DNA of 11,447 bases from a virus. Taxonomy: Duplodnaviria; Heunggongvirae; Uroviricota; Caudoviricetes. The DNA lies in IMG/VR virus record IMGVR_UViG_2541047595_000012, one strand, 5' to 3'. Positions 5,190-11,313 of this stretch are shown here, piece after piece; position 1 is the stretch's first letter; each line of letters starts with the position of its first letter. Both the position numbers and the translations under genes were made by a program. The notes beneath the pieces are model-generated. The model searched no databases. It was not told the DNA's origin and was given only the letters and a program-made list of their open reading frames with translations.

Positions 5190-5480
5190 TCATCTTTTAA
5201 CTCCATATACCGCCAATACCCGTTTCATCGCGGCACTCTGGCGACACTCCTTAAAAATTAGGTTCGTGCTCATCTTTCCTTCCCGTTCTTCCCTGGTAGC
5301 AAACCGGTAATACACCGTTCGCCAGACCTTACCTTCGATAACCAGAAGACCTGCCCGTGCCATTTTAGCCGCGGCCTGATTTATGCTGGTTACTGTTGCG
5401 CCTGTTAGCGCGGCAACGTCCGGCGCACAGAAGCTATTATGCGTCCCCAGGTAATGAATAATTGCCTCTTTGCCCGTCAT
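5190..5480 (-). CDS. ren: Ren protein
   Basis: 96-aa ORF MTGKEAIIHYLGTHNSFCAPDVAALTGATVTSINQAAAKMARAGLLVIEGKVWRTVYY..., recognised as lambda Ren. Its start overlaps the P stop (ATGA). Confidence 0.85.
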   Translation of the reverse strand: MTGKEAIIHYLGTHNSFCAPDVAALTGATVTSINQAAAKMARAGLLVIEGKVWRTVYYRFATREEREGKMSTNLIFKECRQSAAMKRVLAVYGVKR

Positions 5481-6178
5481 ACACTTGCTCCTTTCAGTCC
5501 GAACTTAGCTTTGAGTTCTGCGATCTTCGCCAGAGCCTGTGCACGATTTAGAGGTCTACCGCCCATGACAGGAAGTTGTTTTACTGGTTCAGGGATCGCC
5601 TCACCACGGTTAATTCTCGCAGTCATATGGACAAGCTCATCTGCGGCCTTACGGCGTAATTCCGCATCAGTAAGCGCATTGGCCCGCATGTTCTGATACA
5701 GGTTGGTAACCAGCCAGTAGTGCGCGTTTGATTTCCACGGATAAGACTCCGCATCCGGATACAGGCCTCGCTTCCGGCAATACTCGTAAACCATATCAAC
5801 CAGCTCGCTGACGTTTGGCAGTCCGGCGATAACGGATGCTTCTTCCCGGCACCATGCAACAAACTGCCCGGGTGATGGCAGAAATGGTCGATTCTGCCGA
5901 CGGGCTACGCGCATTCCTGCGTTAACCTGTTCCATTGTGGTGATCCCGTTTTCCCGGAAAGCCAGAACCCACTGGCGGCGGATTTCGTTCAGTTCGTTCT
6001 GGTCACGGTTAGCCAGACTCGCCGGGAAAGTTGCCAGTAACTGGCTGAACACACCGTTGATGATCTGCGCTACCTGCTGTACCTGCGGCTTTTCGTCGTA
6101 CTGTTCCGGCATGTTGTTGGCGATCCTACGCATCTGCTCACGGTCAAAGTTAACCATCTGTGCGGCGATGTTTTTCAT
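5477..6178 (-). CDS. P: replication protein P (DnaB helicase loader)
   Basis: 233-aa ORF MKNIAAQMVNFDREQMRRIANNMPEQYDEKPQVQQVAQIINGVFSQLLATFPASLANRDQ..., recognised as lambda P. Its start overlaps the O stop (ATGA). Confidence 0.9.
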   Translation of the reverse strand: MKNIAAQMVNFDREQMRRIANNMPEQYDEKPQVQQVAQIINGVFSQLLATFPASLANRDQNELNEIRRQWVLAFRENGITTMEQVNAGMRVARRQNRPFLPSPGQFVAWCREEASVIAGLPNVSELVDMVYEYCRKRGLYPDAESYPWKSNAHYWLVTNLYQNMRANALTDAELRRKAADELVHMTARINRGEAIPEPVKQLPVMGGRPLNRAQALAKIAELKAKFGLKGASV

Positions 6179-7074
6179 AGATCCACCCCGTAAATCCAGT
6201 CTGTGTTTGTCAGGTCGAGTTTTGGTTTGCTGGCTGTCACGACTGCCTGTTGCTTGTTACGGTTGATTTCGAGCTGGGTCCACTTGTCGCGGAGTTTGGC
6301 CGGGCTAAGCACGTTACCGGACCAGAAGTTGTCCTGGCATGCCCAGCGGAACAGCACGCACATGTCGCGGTGGTTACGTCCGTCACGTTCACGCATCAGG
6401 CGGATATCGTTAGCCCACCCTGCAAAATTCGGTTTTCTGGCTGATGGCGCGATGGTCTTCACCATGTCAAACATCCACTCTGCGGCGGTCAGGTCTTCTG
6501 CTGTCCCCCACTTGCTGCCGCTCTGAATTGCAGCATCCGGTTTCACCACAGAAAGGTCGTTTTCTGGCTGGTCAGAGGATTCGCCAGAATTCTCTGACGA
6601 ATAATCTTTTCTTTTTTCTTTTGTAATAGTGTCTTTTGTGTCCCCCTGTTTTGAGGGATAGCAATCCCCCAATTTGAGGGATGTTTTATCCCTCGTTTTA
6701 GGGGATTTTCCCTCGTTTTGAGGGATGCACCATTCTGAGATGTTTTTGTTTGGTCCAAACATGCCGCCTTGCTGCTTGATAATATTCATTCTGACGAGTT
6801 CTAACTTGGCTTCATTGCACCGTTTGACGGGTAACTTTGTAATCTCGCTAAGTTGAGAATCGGTGATTCTGTCCATTGGTTTATTCCACCCATAGGTTTT
6901 ACGCAGAATGGCAAGCAGCACTTTAAACTGTCGCTTGGTCAGATCTGCGCCTGAATAAGCCTCAAGCAGCATATTTGATAGTCTGGCGTAACCATCATCG
7001 AGATCTGCCACATTACGCTCCTGTTTGGCAAAGTTACCTCTGCAGAAGTTGAGTATTTTTGCTGTATTTGTCAT
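6175..7074 (-). CDS. O: replication initiator protein O
   Basis: 299-aa ORF MTNTAKILNFCRGNFAKQERNVADLDDGYARLSNMLLEAYSGADLTKRQFKVLLAILRKTYGWNKP..., recognised as lambda O. The ori iterons are embedded in the middle of the gene, as in lambda. Confidence 0.9.
   Translation of the reverse strand: MTNTAKILNFCRGNFAKQERNVADLDDGYARLSNMLLEAYSGADLTKRQFKVLLAILRKTYGWNKPMDRITDSQLSEITKLPVKRCNEAKLELVRMNIIKQQGGMFGPNKNISEWCIPQNEGKSPKTRDKTSLKLGDCYPSKQGDTKDTITKEKRKDYSSENSGESSDQPENDLSVVKPDAAIQSGSKWGTAEDLTAAEWMFDMVKTIAPSARKPNFAGWANDIRLMRERDGRNHRDMCVLFRWACQDNFWSGNVLSPAKLRDKWTQLEINRNKQQAVVTASKPKLDLTNTDWIYGVDL
6595..6725. repeat. ori-lambda: four iterons (about 18-20 bp each, core TCCCTC/GAGGGA with A/T spacers) plus an adjacent AT-rich unwinding region, inside the O coding sequence
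   Basis: Direct repeats are visible at about 6641-6658, 6663-6681, 6686-6704 and 6705-6724 (for example TCCCCCTGTTTTGAGGGA and TTCCCTCGTTTTGAGGGA). They are preceded by the AT-rich stretch 6598-6640 (AATCTTTTCTTTTTTCTTTTGTAATAGTGTCTTTTGTG). Confidence 0.8.
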
Positions 7075-7083
7075 AATGACTCC

Positions 7084-7160
7084 TGTGGATTGATCCAGTA
7101 ATGACCTCAGAATTCCATCTGGATTTGTTCAGAACGCTCGGTTGCCGCCGGGCGTTTTTT
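7084..7160 (+). ncRNA. oop: OOP-like antisense RNA (candidate), ending at an intrinsic terminator, antisense to the 3' end of cII
   Basis: Plus-strand terminator CGCTCGG-TTGCCG-CCGGGCG followed by TTTTTT (7135-7160) lies inside the 3' end of cII on the opposite strand. A promoter-like TTGAGT...TCATAAT sits about 80 nt upstream inside the start of O. The 5' end is inferred, not observed. Confidence 0.5.
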
Positions 7161-7403
7161 ATTGGTGAGTCCATCAAGCGCATACTTAAAAGCCCTGCTA
7201 ATCGGACTGATGTCTGATGCCATTCCGAAAGCACACAAGACCGAAGCAATAAATCTCCAATCCGTTCTGCTTATCTTCGATTCATGACAGCCAATCATCT
7301 TTGCCAGACCGCGCTGGGTAATAGCTGACAGATTGATAAGTAAATCTGTTTCTGCGCGATCAACTTCACGCTGTGATAGTTTGCTGTAACTTGTTCTTTC
7401 CAT
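7107..7403 (-). CDS. cII: transcriptional activator CII (mosaic: non-lambda N-terminus, lambda-like C-terminus)
   Basis: 98-aa ORF whose C-terminus ...LTNKKRPAATERSEQIQMEF matches lambda CII from memory. The N-terminal two-thirds differ, consistent with an immunity-module boundary inside cII. Confidence 0.8.
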   Translation of the reverse strand: MERTSYSKLSQREVDRAETDLLINLSAITQRGLAKMIGCHESKISRTDWRFIASVLCAFGMASDISPISRAFKYALDGLTNKKRPAATERSEQIQMEF

Positions 7404-7420: not shown

Positions 7421-7488
7421 AGTGAATAGTTAGTTGAAAGGTATGCGTGGAAACGCATATGGCCTTAGTTGGTCAGATATCTTGGAAC

Positions 7489-7534
7489 TCGCTTTTCAGC
7501 GACGTAGGACGAATGTCCGTTGTTACAAAGAGCG
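7489..7534 (-). promoter_or_regulatory. nutR-like site: boxA (CGCTCTTTGTAACAA) and boxB hairpin (TCGC-TGAAAA-GCGA) between cro and cII
   Basis: Read on the minus strand: a boxA-like GCTCTTT element at 7534-7520 and a small GAAAA-loop hairpin at 7502-7489. The same GCTGAAAAGC core occurs at the nutL candidate. A further hairpin at 7440-7457 (TATGCGT-GGAA-ACGCATA on the plus strand) is in the tR1 position. Confidence 0.45.
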
Positions 7535-7544
7535 GATCCGCTTA

Positions 7545-7760
7545 TTAAGCGGCTTTGTGTTCCGGCGGGAACACGTCATCAAGACTGACTTTTGCGCCTA
7601 ACTTGTTTAGGCACGCAACAAGAGCACGGCATGTTTTAAGGTCTGGGAAGCGACGACCAGATTCCCAATGTCCGATAGCTCCCTGTGTGCATCCAACTGC
7701 CTTAGCAAGTGTTGTTTGAGAGATATTCAGTGACTCTCGATATTTTCGTAGGTTGCTCAT
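7545..7760 (-). CDS. cro: Cro-like repressor (HTH, 71 aa)
   Basis: The internal ATG at 7760, preceded by GGAGGG, gives MSNLRKYRESLNISQTTLAKAVGCTQGAIGHWESGRRFPD... with a helix-turn-helix whose recognition helix (TQGAIGHW) mirrors that of the divergently encoded CI (TQGGIGHW). The longer track ORF (start 7853) would run through the operator region. Confidence 0.8.
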   Translation of the reverse strand: MSNLRKYRESLNISQTTLAKAVGCTQGAIGHWESGRRFPDLKTCRALVACLNKLGAKVSLDDVFPPEHKAA

Positions 7761-7870
7761 ATGCCCTCCATAGTAAACACGAATAAAAAATACAATATGT
7801 ACTTTAAGAATACAAGTAAAAATACACATTGTGCATGGATGGTTCCAGTACAAAGCGTAATAATAAGAAC
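7761..7870. promoter_or_regulatory. OR region with divergent pR (towards cro) and pRM (towards cI) and TACA/TGTA-armed operator repeats
   Basis: Minus-strand pR candidate: -35 TTGTAT (plus 7810-7815) and -10 TATTTT (plus 7787-7792), with the operator-like 19-mer AAAGTACATATTGTATTTT (plus 7787-7805) across the spacer and -10. AATACA[A/C] repeats occur at 7789, 7809 and 7821. pRM -10 candidate TAATAA at 7858-7863 lies immediately before the cI ATG, suggesting a leaderless cI mRNA. Confidence 0.55.
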
Positions 7871-8530
7871 ATGAAAATGAAATGGTATGAACTGGCTAGA
7901 TCCAGAATGAAAGAGCTCGGCATAACTCAAGAGAAGTTAGCCGAAGAGCTAGGTATGACGCAGGGTGGGATTGGACACTGGTTGCGCGGATCTCGTCATC
8001 CATCTCTTAGTGATATTGGAGTGGTGTTTAAATACCTTGGTATTGATAACATATCATTCAACCACGACGGGACATTTTCACCTGTTGGCGAATACTCATC
8101 GGCCCCAGTTAAAAAACAATATGAGTACCCTGTTTTTTCTCATGTTCAGGCTGGGATGTTCTCTCCAGAACTCAGAACCTTTACCAAAGGCGATGCGGAG
8201 AGATTGGTAAGCACAACCAAAAAAGCCAGTGACTCTGCATTCTGGCTTGAGGTTGAAGGTAACTCAATGACCGCACCAACAGGTTCCAAGCCCAGCTTTC
8301 CTGACGGGATGTTAATTCTGGTTGACCCTGAGCAGGCTGTTGAGCCAGGCGATTTCTGTATAGCCAGACTTGGTGGTGATGAGTTTACCTTCAAGAAACT
8401 GATCAGGGATAGCGGTCAGGTGTTTCTACAGCCACTAAACCCACAATACCCAATGATCCCATGCAATGAGAGTTGTTCCGTTGTGGGGAAAGTTATCGCT
8501 AGTCAGTGGCCTGAAGAGACGTTTGGGTGA
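7871..8530 (+). CDS. cI: CI prophage repressor (HTH N-terminal domain plus LexA/S24-type autocleavage C-terminal domain)
   Basis: The C-terminal part (...[25 protein letters not shown]...[29 protein letters not shown]...[32 protein letters not shown]) matches the lambda CI C-terminal domain from memory, including the Ser/Lys dyad context. The N-terminal HTH domain is non-lambda. The start is uncertain: ATGs at 7835, 7871 and 7877 are all in frame, with no Shine-Dalgarno, consistent with a leaderless message; 7871 is chosen. Confidence 0.8.
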
Positions 8531-8629
8531 TGTGACTGCATGTAATTTATCAAAAGCGCACATACCCTATGCTAAACAACTTACTGATTAATTTACTGAA
8601 AATCATTTATTAAAAAATAAGGATTGCCA

Positions 8630-9481
8630 ATGAATTTTTCGGAAGAAAAAAATAAAGATTTCCCCAAAAAAGTACAAACTTCGCTATTTGAAGTAGATTG
8701 TAATGACGGATGCTCATTTGTAGATGTCTTGAAGACATGCGAAAATTTCAAACAAAACTATGACTTTGAGTACTCTAACGACACTCGGGCAAGGATAAAA
8801 AGTCTAATAGTTAACGATGACCAAATCTTTGCTGGGATAACACTCTATGAGCCCAAAGCTTTGGTCCCGGTAACTCCAAAAGATGGAGACCATAACGATT
8901 TGCAGGATGTAGATAATTATGATAAATGCCATATATTCTTGCTTGCAACAGAAAGCAATATTCTAACAATTTTTCAACTATCAGGAACTCATCCTTTATC
9001 TAAGTTAAAAAAAATATTTAGCCTCATGAATATCAATGTGAATATTTCTGAGAAACTCAACAAAGATGCACTTGGCAAGATAATAAAAGATGGAATACGC
9101 TCCATCAGCCTAAGTATTGAAACAACAAAAGAAGATCTAGAAGAGGCAAAAGCAACATCATTAGGTATCACTGGAAAAGCTAAAGAAGCTTTGTCAAGAT
9201 TATTTGAGAAAGAGCAAGATGATGACAACTCTTTCTATGGGCTTCTGACTCTTGACAAGAGACATAACCCAAAACTCTTAAATATTGCGAACAAAAATCC
9301 AAGCCTGATCATTGATGAATTATCGGAAGAGTTCTTCATCACAACATCAAAAGGCCAAGCGATCAAAAGCTCTGAAATCAAAACAAAAAAAGATTATTAC
9401 ACAAGAAAGTATGGCTCTACCACCATAAAAGCGGAACACGCTAAGGAAATTCTTGAGCACTTCAAGGATTTCATACTATAA
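8630..9481 (+). CDS. hypothetical soluble protein (283 aa), first gene of an AT-rich cassette in the rexA position; not recognisable as lambda RexA
   Basis: The ATG at 8630 is preceded by AAGGA (the track ORF begins on a TTG at 8624). The protein is Lys/Asp/Glu-rich with no transmembrane segment, no Walker motif and no obvious nuclease or protease signature. Codon usage and base composition are visibly AT-rich compared with the flanking phage genes. Confidence 0.7.
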   Translation: MNFSEEKNKDFPKKVQTSLFEVDCNDGCSFVDVLKTCENFKQNYDFEYSNDTRARIKSLIVNDDQIFAGITLYEPKALVPVTPKDGDHNDLQDVDNYDKCHIFLLATESNILTIFQLSGTHPLSKLKKIFSLMNINVNISEKLNKDALGKIIKDGIRSISLSIETTKEDLEEAKATSLGITGKAKEALSRLFEKEQDDDNSFYGLLTLDKRHNPKLLNIANKNPSLIIDELSEEFFITTSKGQAIKSSEIKTKKDYYTRKYGSTTIKAEHAKEILEHFKDFIL

Positions 9482-9518
9482 TGGAGGGTCGTACGTATAA
9501 CCAAAGGGGGAGGTGTGA

Positions 9519-10010
9519 ATGAGAGGTAAAGATTGGAGTTATATTTTTTCCATAATCTTTTTTATCTGCCTTTCTCTTGTATTAACTTATTATTTACATG
9601 ATAAGGTTAGATATAACAAAGAGTTGCTTGGACTTGTGGCAAATATATTTTCAATATTAACAGGGTTTCTGTTACTTGTTATAACCACAAGTGGAGACGT
9701 AGCATCGTTTACAGAAGGTAAATCAAGATCAGAAAAGTATGCAACTAAGAGGAAATTCGAAATTCGGTTTTCTCGTTACATGATGCTTTTTTACCTCTAT
9801 CTTACAGTCTTGTGCTTAATATTCTTCTACTACATGCTGCTGCCACCAGGAGACACCAGTAAAATCTTAGCAAGCAAGCCGCCTGTGACCAACCTGAGTC
9901 TGGCACTTGAGTTTATTATATGCTGGCTAAGCATAATTTCATTTGGATGCTCTTTTTTCATACCAATAAAGCTGAAACAGATTTATAACGAAAAACTCAA
10001 GCAACAATAA
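9519..10010 (+). CDS. hypothetical integral membrane protein (163 aa, about four transmembrane helices), second gene of the cassette in the rexB position
   Basis: The ATG at 9519 is preceded by a strong GGGGGAGG Shine-Dalgarno. Four hydrophobic stretches are visible (about aa 8-26, 36-57, 87-108 and 126-150). The size and topology resemble RexB-type small membrane effectors, but the sequence is not recognisably RexB. Confidence 0.75.
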   Translation: MRGKDWSYIFSIIFFICLSLVLTYYLHDKVRYNKELLGLVANIFSILTGFLLLVITTSGDVASFTEGKSRSEKYATKRKFEIRFSRYMMLFYLYLTVLCLIFFYYMLLPPGDTSKILASKPPVTNLSLALEFIICWLSIISFGCSFFIPIKLKQIYNEKLKQQ

Positions 10011-10036
10011 CCCGGCCTCAGCGCCGGGTTTTCTTT
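10009..10036 (+). terminator. rho-independent terminator (AACCCGGC-CTCAGC-GCCGGGTT followed by TTCTTTG); timm-like end of the cI-cassette transcript
   Basis: Perfect 8-bp GC-rich stem directly after the stop of the membrane-protein gene, followed by a T-rich tract. Confidence 0.7.
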
Positions 10037-10210: not shown

Positions 10211-10260
10211 TACAACAAATTGTATTGATCTTGTAAAGTACATATCGTACTATTTAACCG
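10211..10260 (+). promoter_or_regulatory. OL/pL-like region: -35 TTGATC (10225-10230), -10 TACTAT (10249-10254), overlapping operator-like motifs
   Basis: The 15-mer AAAGTACATATCGTA (10235-10249) is nearly identical to the motif in the pR spacer (AAAGTACATATTGTA). TACAACAAATTGTA (10211-10224) is a TACA-N6-TGTA inverted repeat. Orientation and distance to nutL and N fit a pL promoter. Confidence 0.5.
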
Positions 10261-10298
10261 TCAGCAGGACGCTGGAAGCCAAATGGAACAGACTGGCA

Positions 10299-10344
10299 GG
10301 CTCTTTAAACAACGTCGACTCTCGACTACGTGGCTGAAAAGCCA
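10299..10344 (+). promoter_or_regulatory. nutL-like site: boxA (GGCTCTTTAAACAA) and boxB hairpin (TGGC-TGAAAA-GCCA)
   Basis: The boxA-like element at 10299-10312 resembles the E. coli and lambda boxA (GCTCTTTAACAA). A GAAAA-loop hairpin follows at 10331-10344. It lies between the pL candidate and N. Confidence 0.5.
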
Positions 10345-10442
10345 GATCACCCAACCACATAAGCTGTGGGATGCAATGCCGAAGCAACCGTCTCAGGAGG
10401 AGCTTCGAGATTGCATCGCCAAAGTTTATTCGGGAGGAATCC

Positions 10443-10715
10443 ATGTCCAGAAAAACAGAATTTAAAGGCACCGCAGCTTCTCGCCGTAGAGCTCGTCGCG
10501 CAAATCTGCAAAGTCAGGAGGCGATCAGCTCCGACAAGCTACACAGGCCAACCCCTTCACGAGTGGTCTTGCAATGCAAGCGCAAACCAGCAATGAGAGC
10601 AGAAGTGATAACTCTGACAACGTTGACCAGAAAATATGAAGGTTCAACTTGTCTTCCGAACGTAGCTCTTTACGCGGCAGGCTACCGGAAATCAAAACAA
10701 CTGACGGCGAGATGA
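10443..10715 (+). CDS. N: N-type antitermination protein (P22-like N with arginine-rich RNA-binding motif)
   Basis: The ATG at 10443 is preceded by GGGAGGAA, giving MSRKTEFKGTAASRRRARRANLQSQEA... with an arginine-rich motif near the N-terminus. The C-terminus ...VALYAAGYRKSKQLTAR resembles the P22 gene 24 (N) product as I recall it. The track ORF start at 10371 is upstream of the Shine-Dalgarno and is unlikely. Confidence 0.7.
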   Translation: MSRKTEFKGTAASRRRARRANLQSQEAISSDKLHRPTPSRVVLQCKRKPAMRAEVITLTTLTRKYEGSTCLPNVALYAAGYRKSKQLTAR

Positions 10716-10731
10716 TAAATTCATTTGCTAA

Positions 10732-11313
10732 TTACTTGTTTTTGCCATGCTTATCCTGAGCGATAAGTTCATCCATAAGGCTGTCTGCCTTCCCGGCAAA
10801 CCGAATGTAGCACTCATGTCTATAGCTTTCAGGAATAACAAAACGGTCGGTATCAGGATATCCAACAGCAGGAGGCCTTCGAACGAGGAGTCCTTTTTTG
10901 AGCAATGAAATTGATTCATGAACTCCCTTTTCCGTTTGTAGCTGGTTATTAGCGGCTACAGCGAATGCCAAATACGCTCTTTCTCCAAGAGTTAACGAAT
11001 CAAACAAATCTTGCACATATTTTTCTTCTTTAGATTTGCGCTTCTGAGCAGCGGATACCTCAATTCTTTCAGTCACAGCGTGATAAGCGGAATTAACAAC
11101 GCCGTTAAGCACATAGCTAACGCAAAACAACAGGATGTAATACATCCAGTAATGAGGAAGGATTTCTGGATTATGCAGGTTTATCCATTCTTTTACGCTT
11201 ACCGGCATAACAATAATCAATATGATCAGGATGATTAGCATATGAATCAACTGTTTAAGTGTCATTCCTTGCAGGAAAAAATGCATTAGTTCCTGCCACC
11301 ATGAGTTGTTCAT
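10732..11313 (-). CDS. sieB: superinfection exclusion protein B (SieB-like), membrane-anchored
   Basis: 193-aa ORF with an N-terminal hydrophobic segment (LIHMLIILIILIIVMPV... and YWMYYILLFCVSYVL), adjacent to N. Its size and location match lambda/P22 SieB; recognition is from memory and only moderately secure. Confidence 0.6.
   Translation of the reverse strand: MNNSWWQELMHFFLQGMTLKQLIHMLIILIILIIVMPVSVKEWINLHNPEILPHYWMYYILLFCVSYVLNGVVNSAYHAVTERIEVSAAQKRKSKEEKYVQDLFDSLTLGERAYLAFAVAANNQLQTEKGVHESISLLKKGLLVRRPPAVGYPDTDRFVIPESYRHECYIRFAGKADSLMDELIAQDKHGKNK

What the first reader, a model, noticed from the sequence alone, without database searches (positions are those of the whole stretch)
10299..10344. 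Paired nutL/nutR candidates sharing a GCTGAAAAGC boxB core
Downstream of the pL candidate there is a boxA-like GGCTCTTTAAACAA followed by a hairpin TGGC-TGAAAA-GCCA. On the other strand, between cro and cII (7489-7534), there is CGCTCTTTGTAACAA followed by TCGC-TGAAAA-GCGA. Two boxA+boxB units at the positions expected for nutL and nutR, with the same loop, fit an N protein carrying an arginine-rich motif. The 6-nt loop and short stem differ from the lambda boxB (5-bp stem, GAAAA or GAAGA pentaloop), so the N-boxB pairing here may be a distinct specificity.
Basis: partly seen in the sequence, partly recalled or inferred. Interest (0 to 1): 0.45.

Follow-up and report, generated by a model that had tools for sequence, protein, structure and literature searches.

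The report
Phage nutL/nutR sites, tetraloop boxB
These are the two N-utilisation (nut) sites of a common E. coli lambdoid phage, already annotated as putative in near-identical Shiga-toxin phages; what is unusual is that the boxB hairpin bound by protein N ends in a true 4-base GNRA loop instead of the 5- or 6-base loops of lambda, P22 and phage 21.

Summary
GCTCTTT-N19-CTACGTSGCTGAAAAGCSAG occurs exactly twice, at 10300-10345 (+) downstream of pL and at 7488-7533 (-) between cro and cII; chance predicts none. The window is a lambdoid E. coli phage (100% identical to phage 2G7b). Its N protein is identical to that of VT2-Sakai and Stx1-converting phage, and the VT2-Sakai GenBank record already marks these same sequences as putative nutL and nutR.

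boxB is a 5-bp stem with a GAAA tetraloop, not a 4-bp stem with a 6-nt loop. Related phages keep the stem through compensatory changes, including the closing pair (U-A to C-G), and the loop is always GNRA (GAAA, GCAA or GUAA). A covarying spacer hairpin and an invariant UACG lie just 5' of boxB.

Loop type follows the N arginine-rich motif. All 99 loci with the RRRxRRAxLQ motif and both sites found have tetraloops. All 69 loci with the 933W/H-19B motif have GACAA pentaloops. The nutR of 933W differs from this one, within boxB, by one loop base.

So this is an ordinary N/nut antitermination module with a probably distinct boxB specificity class that has not been studied. Binding and antitermination are inferred, not shown.

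The parts
10225..10253 (+). pL promoter (-35 TTGATC, -10 TACTAT) that transcribes nutL and N
   Evidence: Placed by homology to 'putative major leftward promoter' of VT2-Sakai AP000422.1 (L001 316-344). My own consensus scan did not reach its threshold here.
10299..10312 (+). nutL boxA, GGCUCUUUAAACAA (core GCUCUUUA at 10300-10307)
   Evidence: Sequence. The core matches rrn boxA UGCUCUUUA as quoted in PMC2724277. It lies inside VT2-Sakai's annotated 'putative N-utilization leftward'.
10314..10326 (+). nutL spacer hairpin, GUCGA-CUC-UCGAC
   Evidence: Predicted by folding. Four of its 5 pairs show compensatory changes across nut sites.
10327..10330 (+). Invariant UACG linker between the spacer hairpin and boxB
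   Evidence: Invariant in alignment A3, and present in every full match (42 of 43) of A4; also in 933W and H-19B. Only the weak outlier L114 has UACU.
10331..10344 (+). nutL boxB, UGGCU-GAAA-AGCCA (5-bp stem, GNRA tetraloop)
   Evidence: Folds at -7.1 kcal/mol, z=-3.95. Stem covariation. Covariance model hit of 69.9 bits at 10296-10347.
10359..10429 (+). N-leader long-range helix (10359-10377 pairs with 10410-10429) between nutL and the N ribosome-binding site
   Evidence: z=-4.8. Conserved from lambda to these phages, with 9 of 19 pairs compensatory. Its equivalence to lambda's boxC/RNase III stem rests on my own knowledge, not on a test here.
10443..10715 (+). N gene (90 aa), arginine-rich motif KGTAASRRRARRANLQ near the N terminus
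   Evidence: Pfam PF25694, E=3.4e-32. phrog_271, anti-termination protein N-like. 100% identical to N of VT2-Sakai-type Stx phages.
7520..7534 (-). nutR boxA, CGCUCUUUGUAACAA
   Evidence: It lies inside VT2-Sakai's 'putative N-utilization rightward'.
7507..7518 (-). nutR spacer hairpin, GGAC-AUUC-GUCC
   Evidence: Predicted by folding. Identical to the H-19B and 933W nutR spacer. Covariation.
7489..7502 (-). nutR boxB, UCGCU-GAAA-AGCGA (preceded by UACG at 7503-7506)
   Evidence: Folds at -6.5 kcal/mol. Pair probability 0.83-0.97 in the context of its transcript. Covariance model hit of 65 bits. It differs from nutL boxB by one compensatory G-C to C-G swap.
7436..7461 (-). tR1-like hairpin (stem-loop 7442-7459) downstream of nutR; a likely first target of antitermination
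   Evidence: Same sequence as the 'putative rho dependent terminator for pR transcript' of VT2-Sakai. Identical in 933W.
7545..7763 (-). cro-like repressor gene, immediately upstream of nutR on the pR transcript
   Evidence: Pfam HTH_3; annotated Cro in matching phage records.
7107..7403 (-). cII gene, downstream of nutR and tR1
   Evidence: Pfam Phage_CII, E=2.6e-34.

Best explanation
These are the nutL and nutR sites of an N-dependent processive antitermination system of the VT2-Sakai type. Transcripts from pL and pR each carry four elements in the same order and with the same spacing: a consensus-like boxA (GCUCUUUA/G), a small spacer hairpin, an invariant UACG, and a boxB hairpin. boxB has a 5-bp stem closed by U-A and capped by a canonical GNRA tetraloop (GAAA). 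The inferred mechanism follows lambda, P22 and H-19B. The N-terminal arginine-rich motif of N (..KGTAASRRRARRANLQ..) folds into a helix on the boxB loop and 5' stem. NusB and S10 bind boxA, and NusA binds the spacer region and N. The complex is handed to RNA polymerase, which then reads through tR1 and later terminators. Because loop length follows the type of arginine-rich motif, this boxB probably defines its own specificity class. That class is separate from the GACAA pentaloop of 933W/H-19B/P22, the GAAGA/GAAAA pentaloop of lambda and the CUAACC hexaloop of phage 21. What is shown here: sequence, position, fold, covariation, homology to annotated sites, and the association of motif with loop. 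What is inferred: binding of N, use of Nus factors, antitermination, and absence of cross-reaction between classes.
For: 1. Two exact copies of a 46-nt architecture, with none expected by chance. A covariance model finds only these two sites in the window, at 69.9 and 65 bits; the next best hit scores 6.7 bits.
2. The positions are canonical. N (Pfam N_peptide, E=3e-32) lies downstream of nutL, and nutR lies between cro and cII.
3. N is 100% identical to VT2-Sakai N, and the nutL-N DNA (pL through N) is 95.7% identical. That GenBank record annotates the same sequences as putative nutL, putative nutR and a putative rho-dependent tR1. The 933W record annotates its homologous sites in the same way.
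4. In two sets of nut sites (18 and 32 distinct sequences) from Escherichia, Salmonella, Citrobacter, Kluyvera, Tatumella and viral contigs, the boxB stem is 100% paired. Three of its 5 pairs show double changes, including the closing pair (U-A to C-G). The spacer hairpin is 93-97% paired, with 4 of 5 pairs covarying. None of 500 shuffles reaches the observed covariation score, and controls with the 3' partner slid by 1-3 columns are only 11-51% paired.
5. The loop is always GNRA: GAAA, GCAA (L004; nutR of L136) or GUAA (nutL of L136).
6. The 5-bp stem with tetraloop is 2.4 kcal/mol more stable than the 4-bp stem with hexaloop.
7. All 99 loci with the RRRx[RHA]R[AQ]x[LVM]Q motif and both sites found have tetraloops at both sites. 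All 69 loci with the LKAKAL motif and both sites found have GACAA at both. There are no mixed cases, although the immunity region between the sites varies from 1.15 to 2.95 kb.
8. The nutR regions of 933W and this window are identical in spacer hairpin, linker, stem, tR1 and cII leader. Within boxB they differ only by one loop base. H-19B oligonucleotides from PMC3526286 give the same result. Identical 60-nt downstream flanks occur with both loop types.
9. A Tatumella N protein joins this motif to a lambda-type body and still has tetraloop boxB sites, so motif and boxB travel together.
10. For the H-19B homologue, N together with NusA and NusG protects the spacer and boxB of nutR in footprinting (PMC3526286).
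Against: There is no experimental evidence for this N with these sites; the database annotations say 'putative'. Many loci are near-identical, so the 99-versus-69 association counts sequences rather than independent events. nutR loop type is also linked to its own boxA variant. The first alignment was collected with a pattern that required 5 paired bases, and the second was fitted to the model, so both lean towards the structure. However, no unpaired case was found at any nut position in loci that retain the site. In the isolated nutL RNA the lowest-energy fold pairs boxA with the boxB loop and 3' arm (-14.1 against -12.0 kcal/mol), and the boxB pair probability is only about 0.19 in the pL leader ensemble. 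One locus (L114) has an N of this motif class but no cognate nut sites. Rfam has no matching family, and no solved structure shares sequence with this N.
Confidence: 0.9

Rival explanations
1. The sites are genuine nut sites, but the tetraloop is a neutral variant rather than a separate specificity. On this view N proteins of this class and of the 933W/P22 class cross-react with both GAAA and GACAA boxB. The association of loop with motif would then reflect only shared ancestry or linkage.
For: All known boxB loops adopt a GNRA-like fold (PMC12550061; PMC12027372). The motif core RRRxRRA resembles lambda's RRRERRA. Many of the loci are near-identical. nutR loop type is linked to its own boxA variant.
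Against: There are no mixed cases in 168 loci with both sites found, despite extensive mosaicism between nutL and nutR (distances of 1.15-2.95 kb) and identical downstream flanks shared by both loop types. nutL and nutR, which lie on opposite sides of the immunity region, always agree in loop length. The association holds across genera and across different N bodies. In P22 the extruded C contacts the peptide (PMC12550061), so its loss should matter.
Confidence: 0.3
2. This is the first reader's structural reading: boxB is a 4-bp stem (GGC/GCC plus U-A) with a 6-nt loop UGAAAA, a loop type different from any GNRA-like boxB.
For: The literal palindrome TGGC...GCCA and TCGC...GCGA is 4+4 bases.
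Against: The U and A flanking GAAA pair in the lowest-energy fold, which gains 2.4 kcal/mol. That pair changes to C-G by a double substitution in Tatumella and in L136/L137. The homologous U-A is the established closing pair of lambda boxB (PMC12027372), and the same U...A flanks the GACAA loop of 933W and the P22-type locus L014. The 4-nt loop is always GNRA.
Confidence: 0.05
3. The hairpins are not protein N targets. On this view they are terminator, Rho-loading or RNA-stability elements, or part of a boxA-sequestering alternative fold that itself is the regulator.
For: The consensus scan flagged the nutL spacer hairpin as terminator-like on the opposite strand. The pairing of boxA with boxB is the lowest-energy fold of nutL. 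In H-19B, nutR overlaps the rut site of tR1 (PMC3526286).
Against: Neither hairpin is followed by a U-tract on the transcribed strand. The alternative pairing has no covariation support: 77.6% paired against 75.6% in shuffles. It cannot form in relatives with a non-consensus boxA. The paired occurrence, the match to the motif and the homology to the footprinted H-19B site all point to N binding.
Confidence: 0.04

Closest known systems
Putative nutL and nutR annotated in Enterobacteria phage VT2-Sakai (AP000422.1)
   Same: The N protein is identical. The nutL sequence is identical and the nutR sequence is identical across boxA, spacer and boxB. Position and order are the same: pL-nutL-N, and cro-nutR-tR1-cII.
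   Different: Nothing differs in the element itself. The immunity region between the two sites differs. The database entry says only 'putative' and gives no structure or specificity.
H-19B / 933W N-nut system (studied experimentally, e.g. PMC3526286)
   Same: The architecture is the same: boxA, spacer hairpin, UACG, then a 5-bp boxB. The nutR spacer, stem, tR1 and cII leader are identical. The N proteins are homologous, about 40% identical with the same C-terminal end.
   Different: The boxB loop is a GACAA pentaloop, against GAAA here. The arginine-rich motif is KGNSRSRRRERLKAKALA, against KGTAASRRRARRANLQ. N is 127 aa, against 90 aa. The boxA of 933W is non-consensus, most clearly at nutL (nutR CGCUAUUUU); here both are consensus-like.
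Lambda N-boxB (GAAGA/GAAAA pentaloop, fourth base extruded; NMR structures)
   Same: 5-bp stem, U-A closing pair, GNRA fold, and an arginine-rich motif core RRRxRRA. boxA lies upstream, and the long-range helix of the N leader is conserved.
   Different: Here the loop has 4 nt, so there is no extruded base. By sequence alignment to the lambda N read, this N has no tryptophan at the position of lambda Trp18. There is an extra structured spacer hairpin and the UACG linker.
P22 N-boxB (GCGCU-GACAA-AGCGC, third base extruded; PDB 1A4T)
   Same: 5-bp stem, U-A closing pair and GNRA-like fold. The C-terminal end of N is homologous (..ALYAAG[HY]RKSKQ[IL]TAR).
   Different: P22 has a pentaloop whose extruded C contacts the peptide. 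Its arginine-rich motif is different (GNAKTRRHERRRKLAIER).
Phage 21 N-boxB (CUAACC hexaloop; PDB 1NYB)
   Same: The pL leader up to boxA is nearly identical. The arginine-rich motif is clearly similar: GTAKSRYKARRAEL against GTAASRRRARRANL.
   Different: Phage 21 boxB has a 7-bp stem and a CUAACC hexaloop that only mimics a GNRA fold. It has no spacer hairpin or UACG, and the body of its N protein is different.
Salmonella phage epsilon34 / g341c N, for which a 'novel BoxB specificity' was predicted in PMC2629481
   Same: In g341c (same pL as epsilon34) the N has the same class of arginine-rich motif (NGSAAGRRRERRAALQ), and its nutL boxB is CGGCU-GAAA-AGCCG.
   Different: The N body is longer, 120 aa. 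The nutL boxA is non-consensus. The paper inferred a new specificity from the protein alone and did not describe the RNA site.

Membership tests
Lambdoid N-utilisation (nut) site | One copy lies on the pL transcript upstream of N, and one lies on the pR transcript between cro and cII | tested here: met
   nutL is at 10299-10344, between pL (about 10225-10253) and N (10443). nutR is at 7534-7489, between cro (stop codon at 7545-7547) and cII (start at 7403).
Lambdoid N-utilisation (nut) site | A boxA resembling CGCUCUU(U)A lies 5' of boxB | tested here: met
   nutL has GGCUCUUUA and nutR has CGCUCUUUG. rrn boxA is UGCUCUUUA and lambda boxA is CGCUCUUA.
Lambdoid N-utilisation (nut) site | A boxB stem-loop that is conserved as a structure and has the same loop in nutL and nutR | tested here: met
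   The 5-bp stem is 100% paired, with 3 of 5 pairs covarying. Both sites in the window have a GAAA loop.
Lambdoid N-utilisation (nut) site | A cognate N protein with an N-terminal arginine-rich motif is encoded in the same phage | tested here: met
   Pfam N_peptide, E=3.4e-32. The motif SRRRARRANLQ is at residues 13-23.
Lambdoid N-utilisation (nut) site | N binds boxB, and the site confers N-dependent read-through of terminators | not testable with these tools
   Only comparative evidence is available, together with footprinting of the H-19B homologue in the literature.
Lambda-type boxB (GNRNA pentaloop, fourth base out) | A five-nucleotide loop GNRNA | tested here: not met
   The loop is 4 nt, GAAA, closed by a covarying pair.
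P22 / H-19B / 933W-type boxB | A GACAA pentaloop on a 5-bp stem with a U-A closing pair | tested here: not met
   The stem and closing pair match. The loop lacks the C: GAAA against GACAA in an otherwise identical nutR.
Phage 21-type boxB | A CUAACC hexaloop on a longer stem | tested here: not met
   Phage 21 nutL has UCUCAAC-CUAACC-GUUGAGA. The stem and loop in the window are different.
GNRA tetraloop hairpin | A four-nucleotide loop G-N-R-A closed by a Watson-Crick pair | tested here: met
   The loops seen are GAAA, GCAA and GUAA only. The closing pair is U-A or C-G. The three-dimensional fold itself was not tested.

The most novel reading that the evidence does not exclude
This would be a fourth natural class of N-boxB recognition, in which boxB is a canonical GNRA tetraloop with no extruded base and is read by its own arginine-rich motif, F[KN]G[ST]A[AS][SG]RRRx[RH]RAxLQ. 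Discrimination from the 933W/H-19B/P22 class would depend on a single loop nucleotide (GAAA against GACAA) in an otherwise identical nutR. If so, an extruded loop base is not needed to build a working N-Nus complex. The invariant UACG and the covarying spacer hairpin may then supply the contacts that the extruded base provides in lambda.
Probability: 0.5. Interest if true: 0.5.

Novelty: new variant of a known kind. Interest (0 to 1): 0.33.

Why it matters
N-boxB complexes are textbook models of how arginine-rich peptides recognise RNA, and boxB is widely used as an RNA tethering tag. All three solved complexes use 5- or 6-nt loops that imitate a GNRA fold. This module is present in roughly 760 to 1,290 of 5,426 complete E. 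coli genomes, including major Shiga-toxin phages. It uses the plain GNRA tetraloop, and it has a sister system that differs by one loop base. That gives a natural, minimal pair for asking how one nucleotide sets peptide-RNA specificity. It also lets one ask whether the extruded base is needed for Nus-factor assembly. N-dependent read-through of early terminators precedes Q expression, and with it Stx expression, so the system also bears on induction of Stx phages. As a genome feature, though, it is an expected part of any lambdoid phage and is already annotated as putative in public records.

Tried and rejected
1. An Rfam scan of the whole window at permissive E-values found no nut or boxB family, only two chance-level hits elsewhere.
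2. A sequence search of the PDB with N found nothing. The phage 21 structure paper (PMC1370434) is not held.
3. The promoter/terminator scan did not pick up pL. It flagged the nutL spacer hairpin as terminator-like on the wrong strand. I rejected this as a terminator because there is no U-tract on the transcribed strand.
4. The alternative fold that pairs boxA with boxB is the lowest-energy fold for isolated nutL, but it has no covariation support. I rejected it as a conserved feature and kept it as a caveat.
5. Three loci with this N lack nutR. The one examined, L068, is a deleted prophage in which a truncated cro abuts Q and then the host gene blc. It is therefore not a counter-example.
6. 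L114 has an N of this motif class but a replaced pL region and a UUCG-capped hairpin in the nutR position. It remains an unexplained exception.
7. Eight literature searches found no description of a tetraloop boxB. The key subscription papers were not available: Neely and Friedman 1998 and 2000, Makino 1999, Yokoyama 2000, Legault 1998 and Franklin 2004.
8. I did not attempt a structure prediction of N, because N proteins are disordered without their partners.

Full report
**What the window is.** The window is the immunity and early-regulatory region of a lambdoid E. coli phage, inverted relative to the usual lambda map.
- On the minus strand lie P (5477-6178), O (6175-7074), cII (7107-7403; Pfam Phage_CII) and a cro-like HTH gene (7545-7763).
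- On the plus strand lie a cI-like repressor (7871-8530; HTH plus Peptidase_S24), two unannotated ORFs, a bidirectional terminator (10009-10030) and N (10443-10715; Pfam N_peptide, E=3.4e-32).
- A sieB homologue follows on the minus strand.
- The nutL-N and cro-cII stretches are 100% identical to Escherichia phages 2G7b and PhiR11_1.
- The pL-to-N stretch is 95.7% identical to VT2-Sakai, Stx1-converting phage, phage 1717, YYZ-2008 and Nil2. The N protein is 100% identical to theirs.
- The nutL-N stretch occurs in 759 (at least 80% coverage) to 1,293 (any match) of 5,426 complete E. coli genomes.

**Check of the observation.** GCTGAAAAGC occurs exactly twice, against 0.04 expected. GCTCTTT-N19-CTACGTSGCTGAAAAGCSAG occurs at 10300-10345 (+) and 7488-7533 (-), with identical spacing and none expected by chance. 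A covariance model built from related sites finds only these two places in the window, at 69.9 and 65 bits, with the next hit at 6.7 bits. The window's own sites were in the model, so this is a control for specificity and not independent proof.

**Anatomy.** Each site reads, 5' to 3', as follows.
- boxA: GGCUCUUUAAACAA in nutL and CGCUCUUUGUAACAA in nutR. For comparison, rrn boxA is UGCUCUUUA and lambda boxA is CGCUCUUA (PMC2724277).
- A small spacer hairpin: GUCGA-CUC-UCGAC in nutL and GGAC-AUUC-GUCC in nutR.
- An invariant UACG.
- boxB: UGGCU-GAAA-AGCCA in nutL and UCGCU-GAAA-AGCGA in nutR.

Folding gives a 5-bp stem with a GAAA tetraloop, at -7.1 and -6.5 kcal/mol. nutL and nutR boxB already differ by one compensatory swap, G-C to C-G.

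**Related sequences.** I collected N loci from annotated phages, from one genome per species, and from viral contigs.
- In two alignments of distinct nut sites (18 and 32 sequences) from Escherichia, Salmonella, Citrobacter, Kluyvera, Tatumella and uncultured viral contigs, the boxB stem is 100% paired.
- Pair 1 is U-A, C-G or A-U. Pair 2 is G-C, C-G or A-U. The loop-closing pair is U-A or C-G.
- The spacer hairpin is 93-97% paired, and 4 of its 5 pairs covary.
- No shuffle out of 500 reaches the observed covariation score. Controls with the partner slid by 1-3 columns are 11-51% paired.
- There is a caveat. The first set was collected with a pattern that demanded pairing, and the second was fitted to the model. 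However, matches to CTACG-N5-GNRA-N5 that do not pair all lie away from nut positions. Apart from L114, no locus that still retains a nut site at the expected position shows an unpaired boxB.
- The loop is GAAA in most sites. It is GCAA in phiSTEC1589-Stx1c. In L136/L137 it is GUAA at nutL and GCAA at nutR. It is therefore always GNRA.

**Known annotation.** The VT2-Sakai record (AP000422.1) annotates 'putative N-utilization leftward' and 'putative N-utilization rightward' on exactly these sequences. It also annotates a 'putative rho dependent terminator for pR transcript' on the hairpin that corresponds to window 7436-7461. The 933W record annotates its own nutL and nutR. The existence of the paired sites is therefore already public knowledge, at the level of a putative annotation.

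**Comparison with characterised systems.**
- Oligonucleotides published for H-19B nutR (PMC3526286 supplement) and the 933W sequence show the same spacer hairpin, UACG and stem UCGCU/AGCGA. The tR1 hairpin and cII leader match in the 933W sequence. Their loop, however, is GACAA.
- Within boxB, the only difference from this window is therefore one nucleotide.
- 933W nutL and a P22-type locus have GCGCU-GACAA-AGCGC.
- Lambda has GCCCU-GAAGA-AGGGC, and phage 21 has UCUCAAC-CUAACC-GUUGAGA.
- The literature lists the lambda pentaloop (fourth base out), the P22 pentaloop (third base out) and the phage 21 hexaloop as the known boxB variants of the GNRA fold (PMC12550061; PMC12027372). I found no description of a natural tetraloop boxB in the searchable library.
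- The epsilon34 genome paper predicted a 'novel BoxB specificity' for its N from the divergent N-terminal 27 residues, but did not identify the RNA (PMC2629481). g341c has the same putative pL as epsilon34 according to its record, and its nutL boxB is CGGCU-GAAA-AGCCG.

**The arginine-rich motif matches the loop.**
- N proteins with tetraloop sites share F[KN]G[ST]A[AS][SG]RRRx[RH]RAxLQ. The window has KGTAASRRRARRANLQ.
- 933W and H-19B have KGNSRSRRRERLKAKALA, and P22 has GNAKTRRHERRRKLAIER.
- Across all loci, 99 with the first motif and both sites found have tetraloops at both sites. All 69 with the LKAKAL motif and both sites found have GACAA at both. There are no mixed cases.
- This holds even though the nutL-nutR distance ranges from 1.15 to 2.95 kb, which implies many different immunity regions. 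It also holds although identical 60-nt flanks downstream of nutR occur with both loop types.
- A Tatumella prophage N joins the tetraloop-class motif to a lambda-type body (54% identical to lambda N over residues 29-107). It still has the sites UGGCC-GAAA-GGCCA and UCGCU-GAAA-AGCGA.
- The motif resembles both phage 21 (GTAKSRYKARRAEL) and lambda (TRRRERRAEKQ).
- These counts are of sequences, not independent events. nutR loop type is also linked to its own boxA variant. Co-selection is therefore likely but not proven.

**Mechanism.** This is inferred from established knowledge of lambda, P22 and H-19B.
- N translated from the pL transcript binds boxB on nascent pL and pR RNA through its arginine-rich helix.
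- NusB and S10 bind the consensus-like boxA. NusA binds the spacer region and N (PMC2724277; PMC3526286).
- The complex modifies RNA polymerase so that it reads through tR1 and downstream terminators.
- Because the loop has no extruded base, any contact that such a base makes in lambda or P22 must be absent or replaced. In P22 the extruded C touches the peptide. From memory of Legault 1998, in lambda the extruded base was linked to NusA-dependent assembly.
- The invariant UACG and the covarying spacer hairpin are candidates for the replacement.

**Caveats.**
- In the isolated nutL RNA the lowest-energy fold pairs boxA with the boxB loop and 3' arm (-14.1 against -12.0 kcal/mol). The boxB pair probability in the pL leader ensemble is about 0.19, against 0.83-0.97 for nutR.
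- This alternative fold lacks covariation support. It would be prevented by co-transcriptional folding and by NusB/S10 bound to boxA. It may nonetheless relate to the 'alternative NUT RNA structures' reported for H-19B, a paper I could not read.
- Locus L114 carries an N of this class without cognate sites.

**Verdict.** The finding is real and its interpretation is essentially right. As a genome feature it is ordinary, and it is already annotated in a near-identical phage. The part worth recording is the corrected structure, a 5-bp stem with a true GNRA tetraloop, and its strict pairing with a distinct arginine-rich motif. This makes it a probable fourth boxB specificity class, one nucleotide away from the H-19B/933W/P22 type.

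Noticed in passing
window 10359-10429 (+): A long-range helix in the N leader: 10359-10377 pairs with 10410-10429, with an inner hairpin at 10379-10409, just before the N ribosome-binding site. It is conserved from lambda through 933W, g341c, Kluyvera and Tatumella loci, with 9 of 19 pairs compensatory. From my own knowledge it looks like the homologue of lambda's boxC/RNase III-processed leader stem; that equivalence was not tested.
   Followed up: partly
window 7049-7168 (+): A promoter-like site (7049-7077, with an extended -10 TG) and a strong intrinsic terminator (7131-7158 plus a T-run) lie antisense to the 3' end of cII. This matches the position and size of lambda oop RNA. Rfam gave no hit.
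   Followed up: no
window 8624-10030 (+): Two ORFs (285 aa, and 163 aa rich in hydrophobic residues) lie between cI and pL, in the position of lambda rexA/rexB, and are followed by a bidirectional terminator. Neither has a Pfam or PADLOC hit. The first matches phrog_23561, of unknown function. They are candidates for a lysogen-expressed exclusion or defence cassette.
   Followed up: partly
window 10732-11313 (-): A homologue of superinfection exclusion protein B (Pfam SieB, E=5e-22) is encoded convergently just downstream of N.
   Followed up: no
window 10299-10344 (+): nutL boxA (GGCUCUUU) is complementary to the boxB loop and 3' arm (GAAAAGCC). This alternative fold is the lowest-energy structure of the isolated nutL RNA and dominates the predicted pL leader ensemble, but it is not supported by covariation.
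   Followed up: yes
L020 4764-5321 (Tatumella terrea): A chimeric N: a tetraloop-class arginine-rich motif is fused to a lambda-type NusA/RNAP-binding body (54% identical to lambda N). Its nutL boxB has a C-G closing pair (UGGCC-GAAA-GGCCA).
   Followed up: partly
L008 295-350 (Salmonella phage SPN9CC): The N has a 933W-like motif (KGTSRARRRERLKAKALA), but its nutL boxB reads GCUC-C[GUCAA]C-GAGC. This is a pentaloop flanked by a C.C mismatch instead of U-A, which recalls the C-C flank of the phage 21 loop.
   Followed up: no
L114 676-731 (-) and 3650-4000 (+): This viral contig has an N of the tetraloop-class motif, but its pL/nutL region is replaced by unrelated sequence. Its nutR position holds boxA followed by a 7-bp hairpin capped by UUCG (CGGCUGA-UUCG-UCAGCCG). 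It is the only exception to the motif-tetraloop rule.
   Followed up: partly
L009, L015 (labelled Segatella copri MAG) and L012 (labelled Xanthomonas pisi): These short contigs, filed under non-enterobacterial genomes, carry E. coli Stx-phage-type N and nut DNA at 98-100% identity. They are probably binning or assembly contamination.
   Followed up: no
L005/L006/L007 nutL, compared with window nutL: In 933W, mEp234 and g341c, nutL has no consensus GCUCUUU boxA. It has ..CACCAGGxxGGUGAAxAUACAAC.. instead. The window has consensus-like boxA at both sites. This suggests that dependence on NusB/S10 differs within one N family.
   Followed up: no
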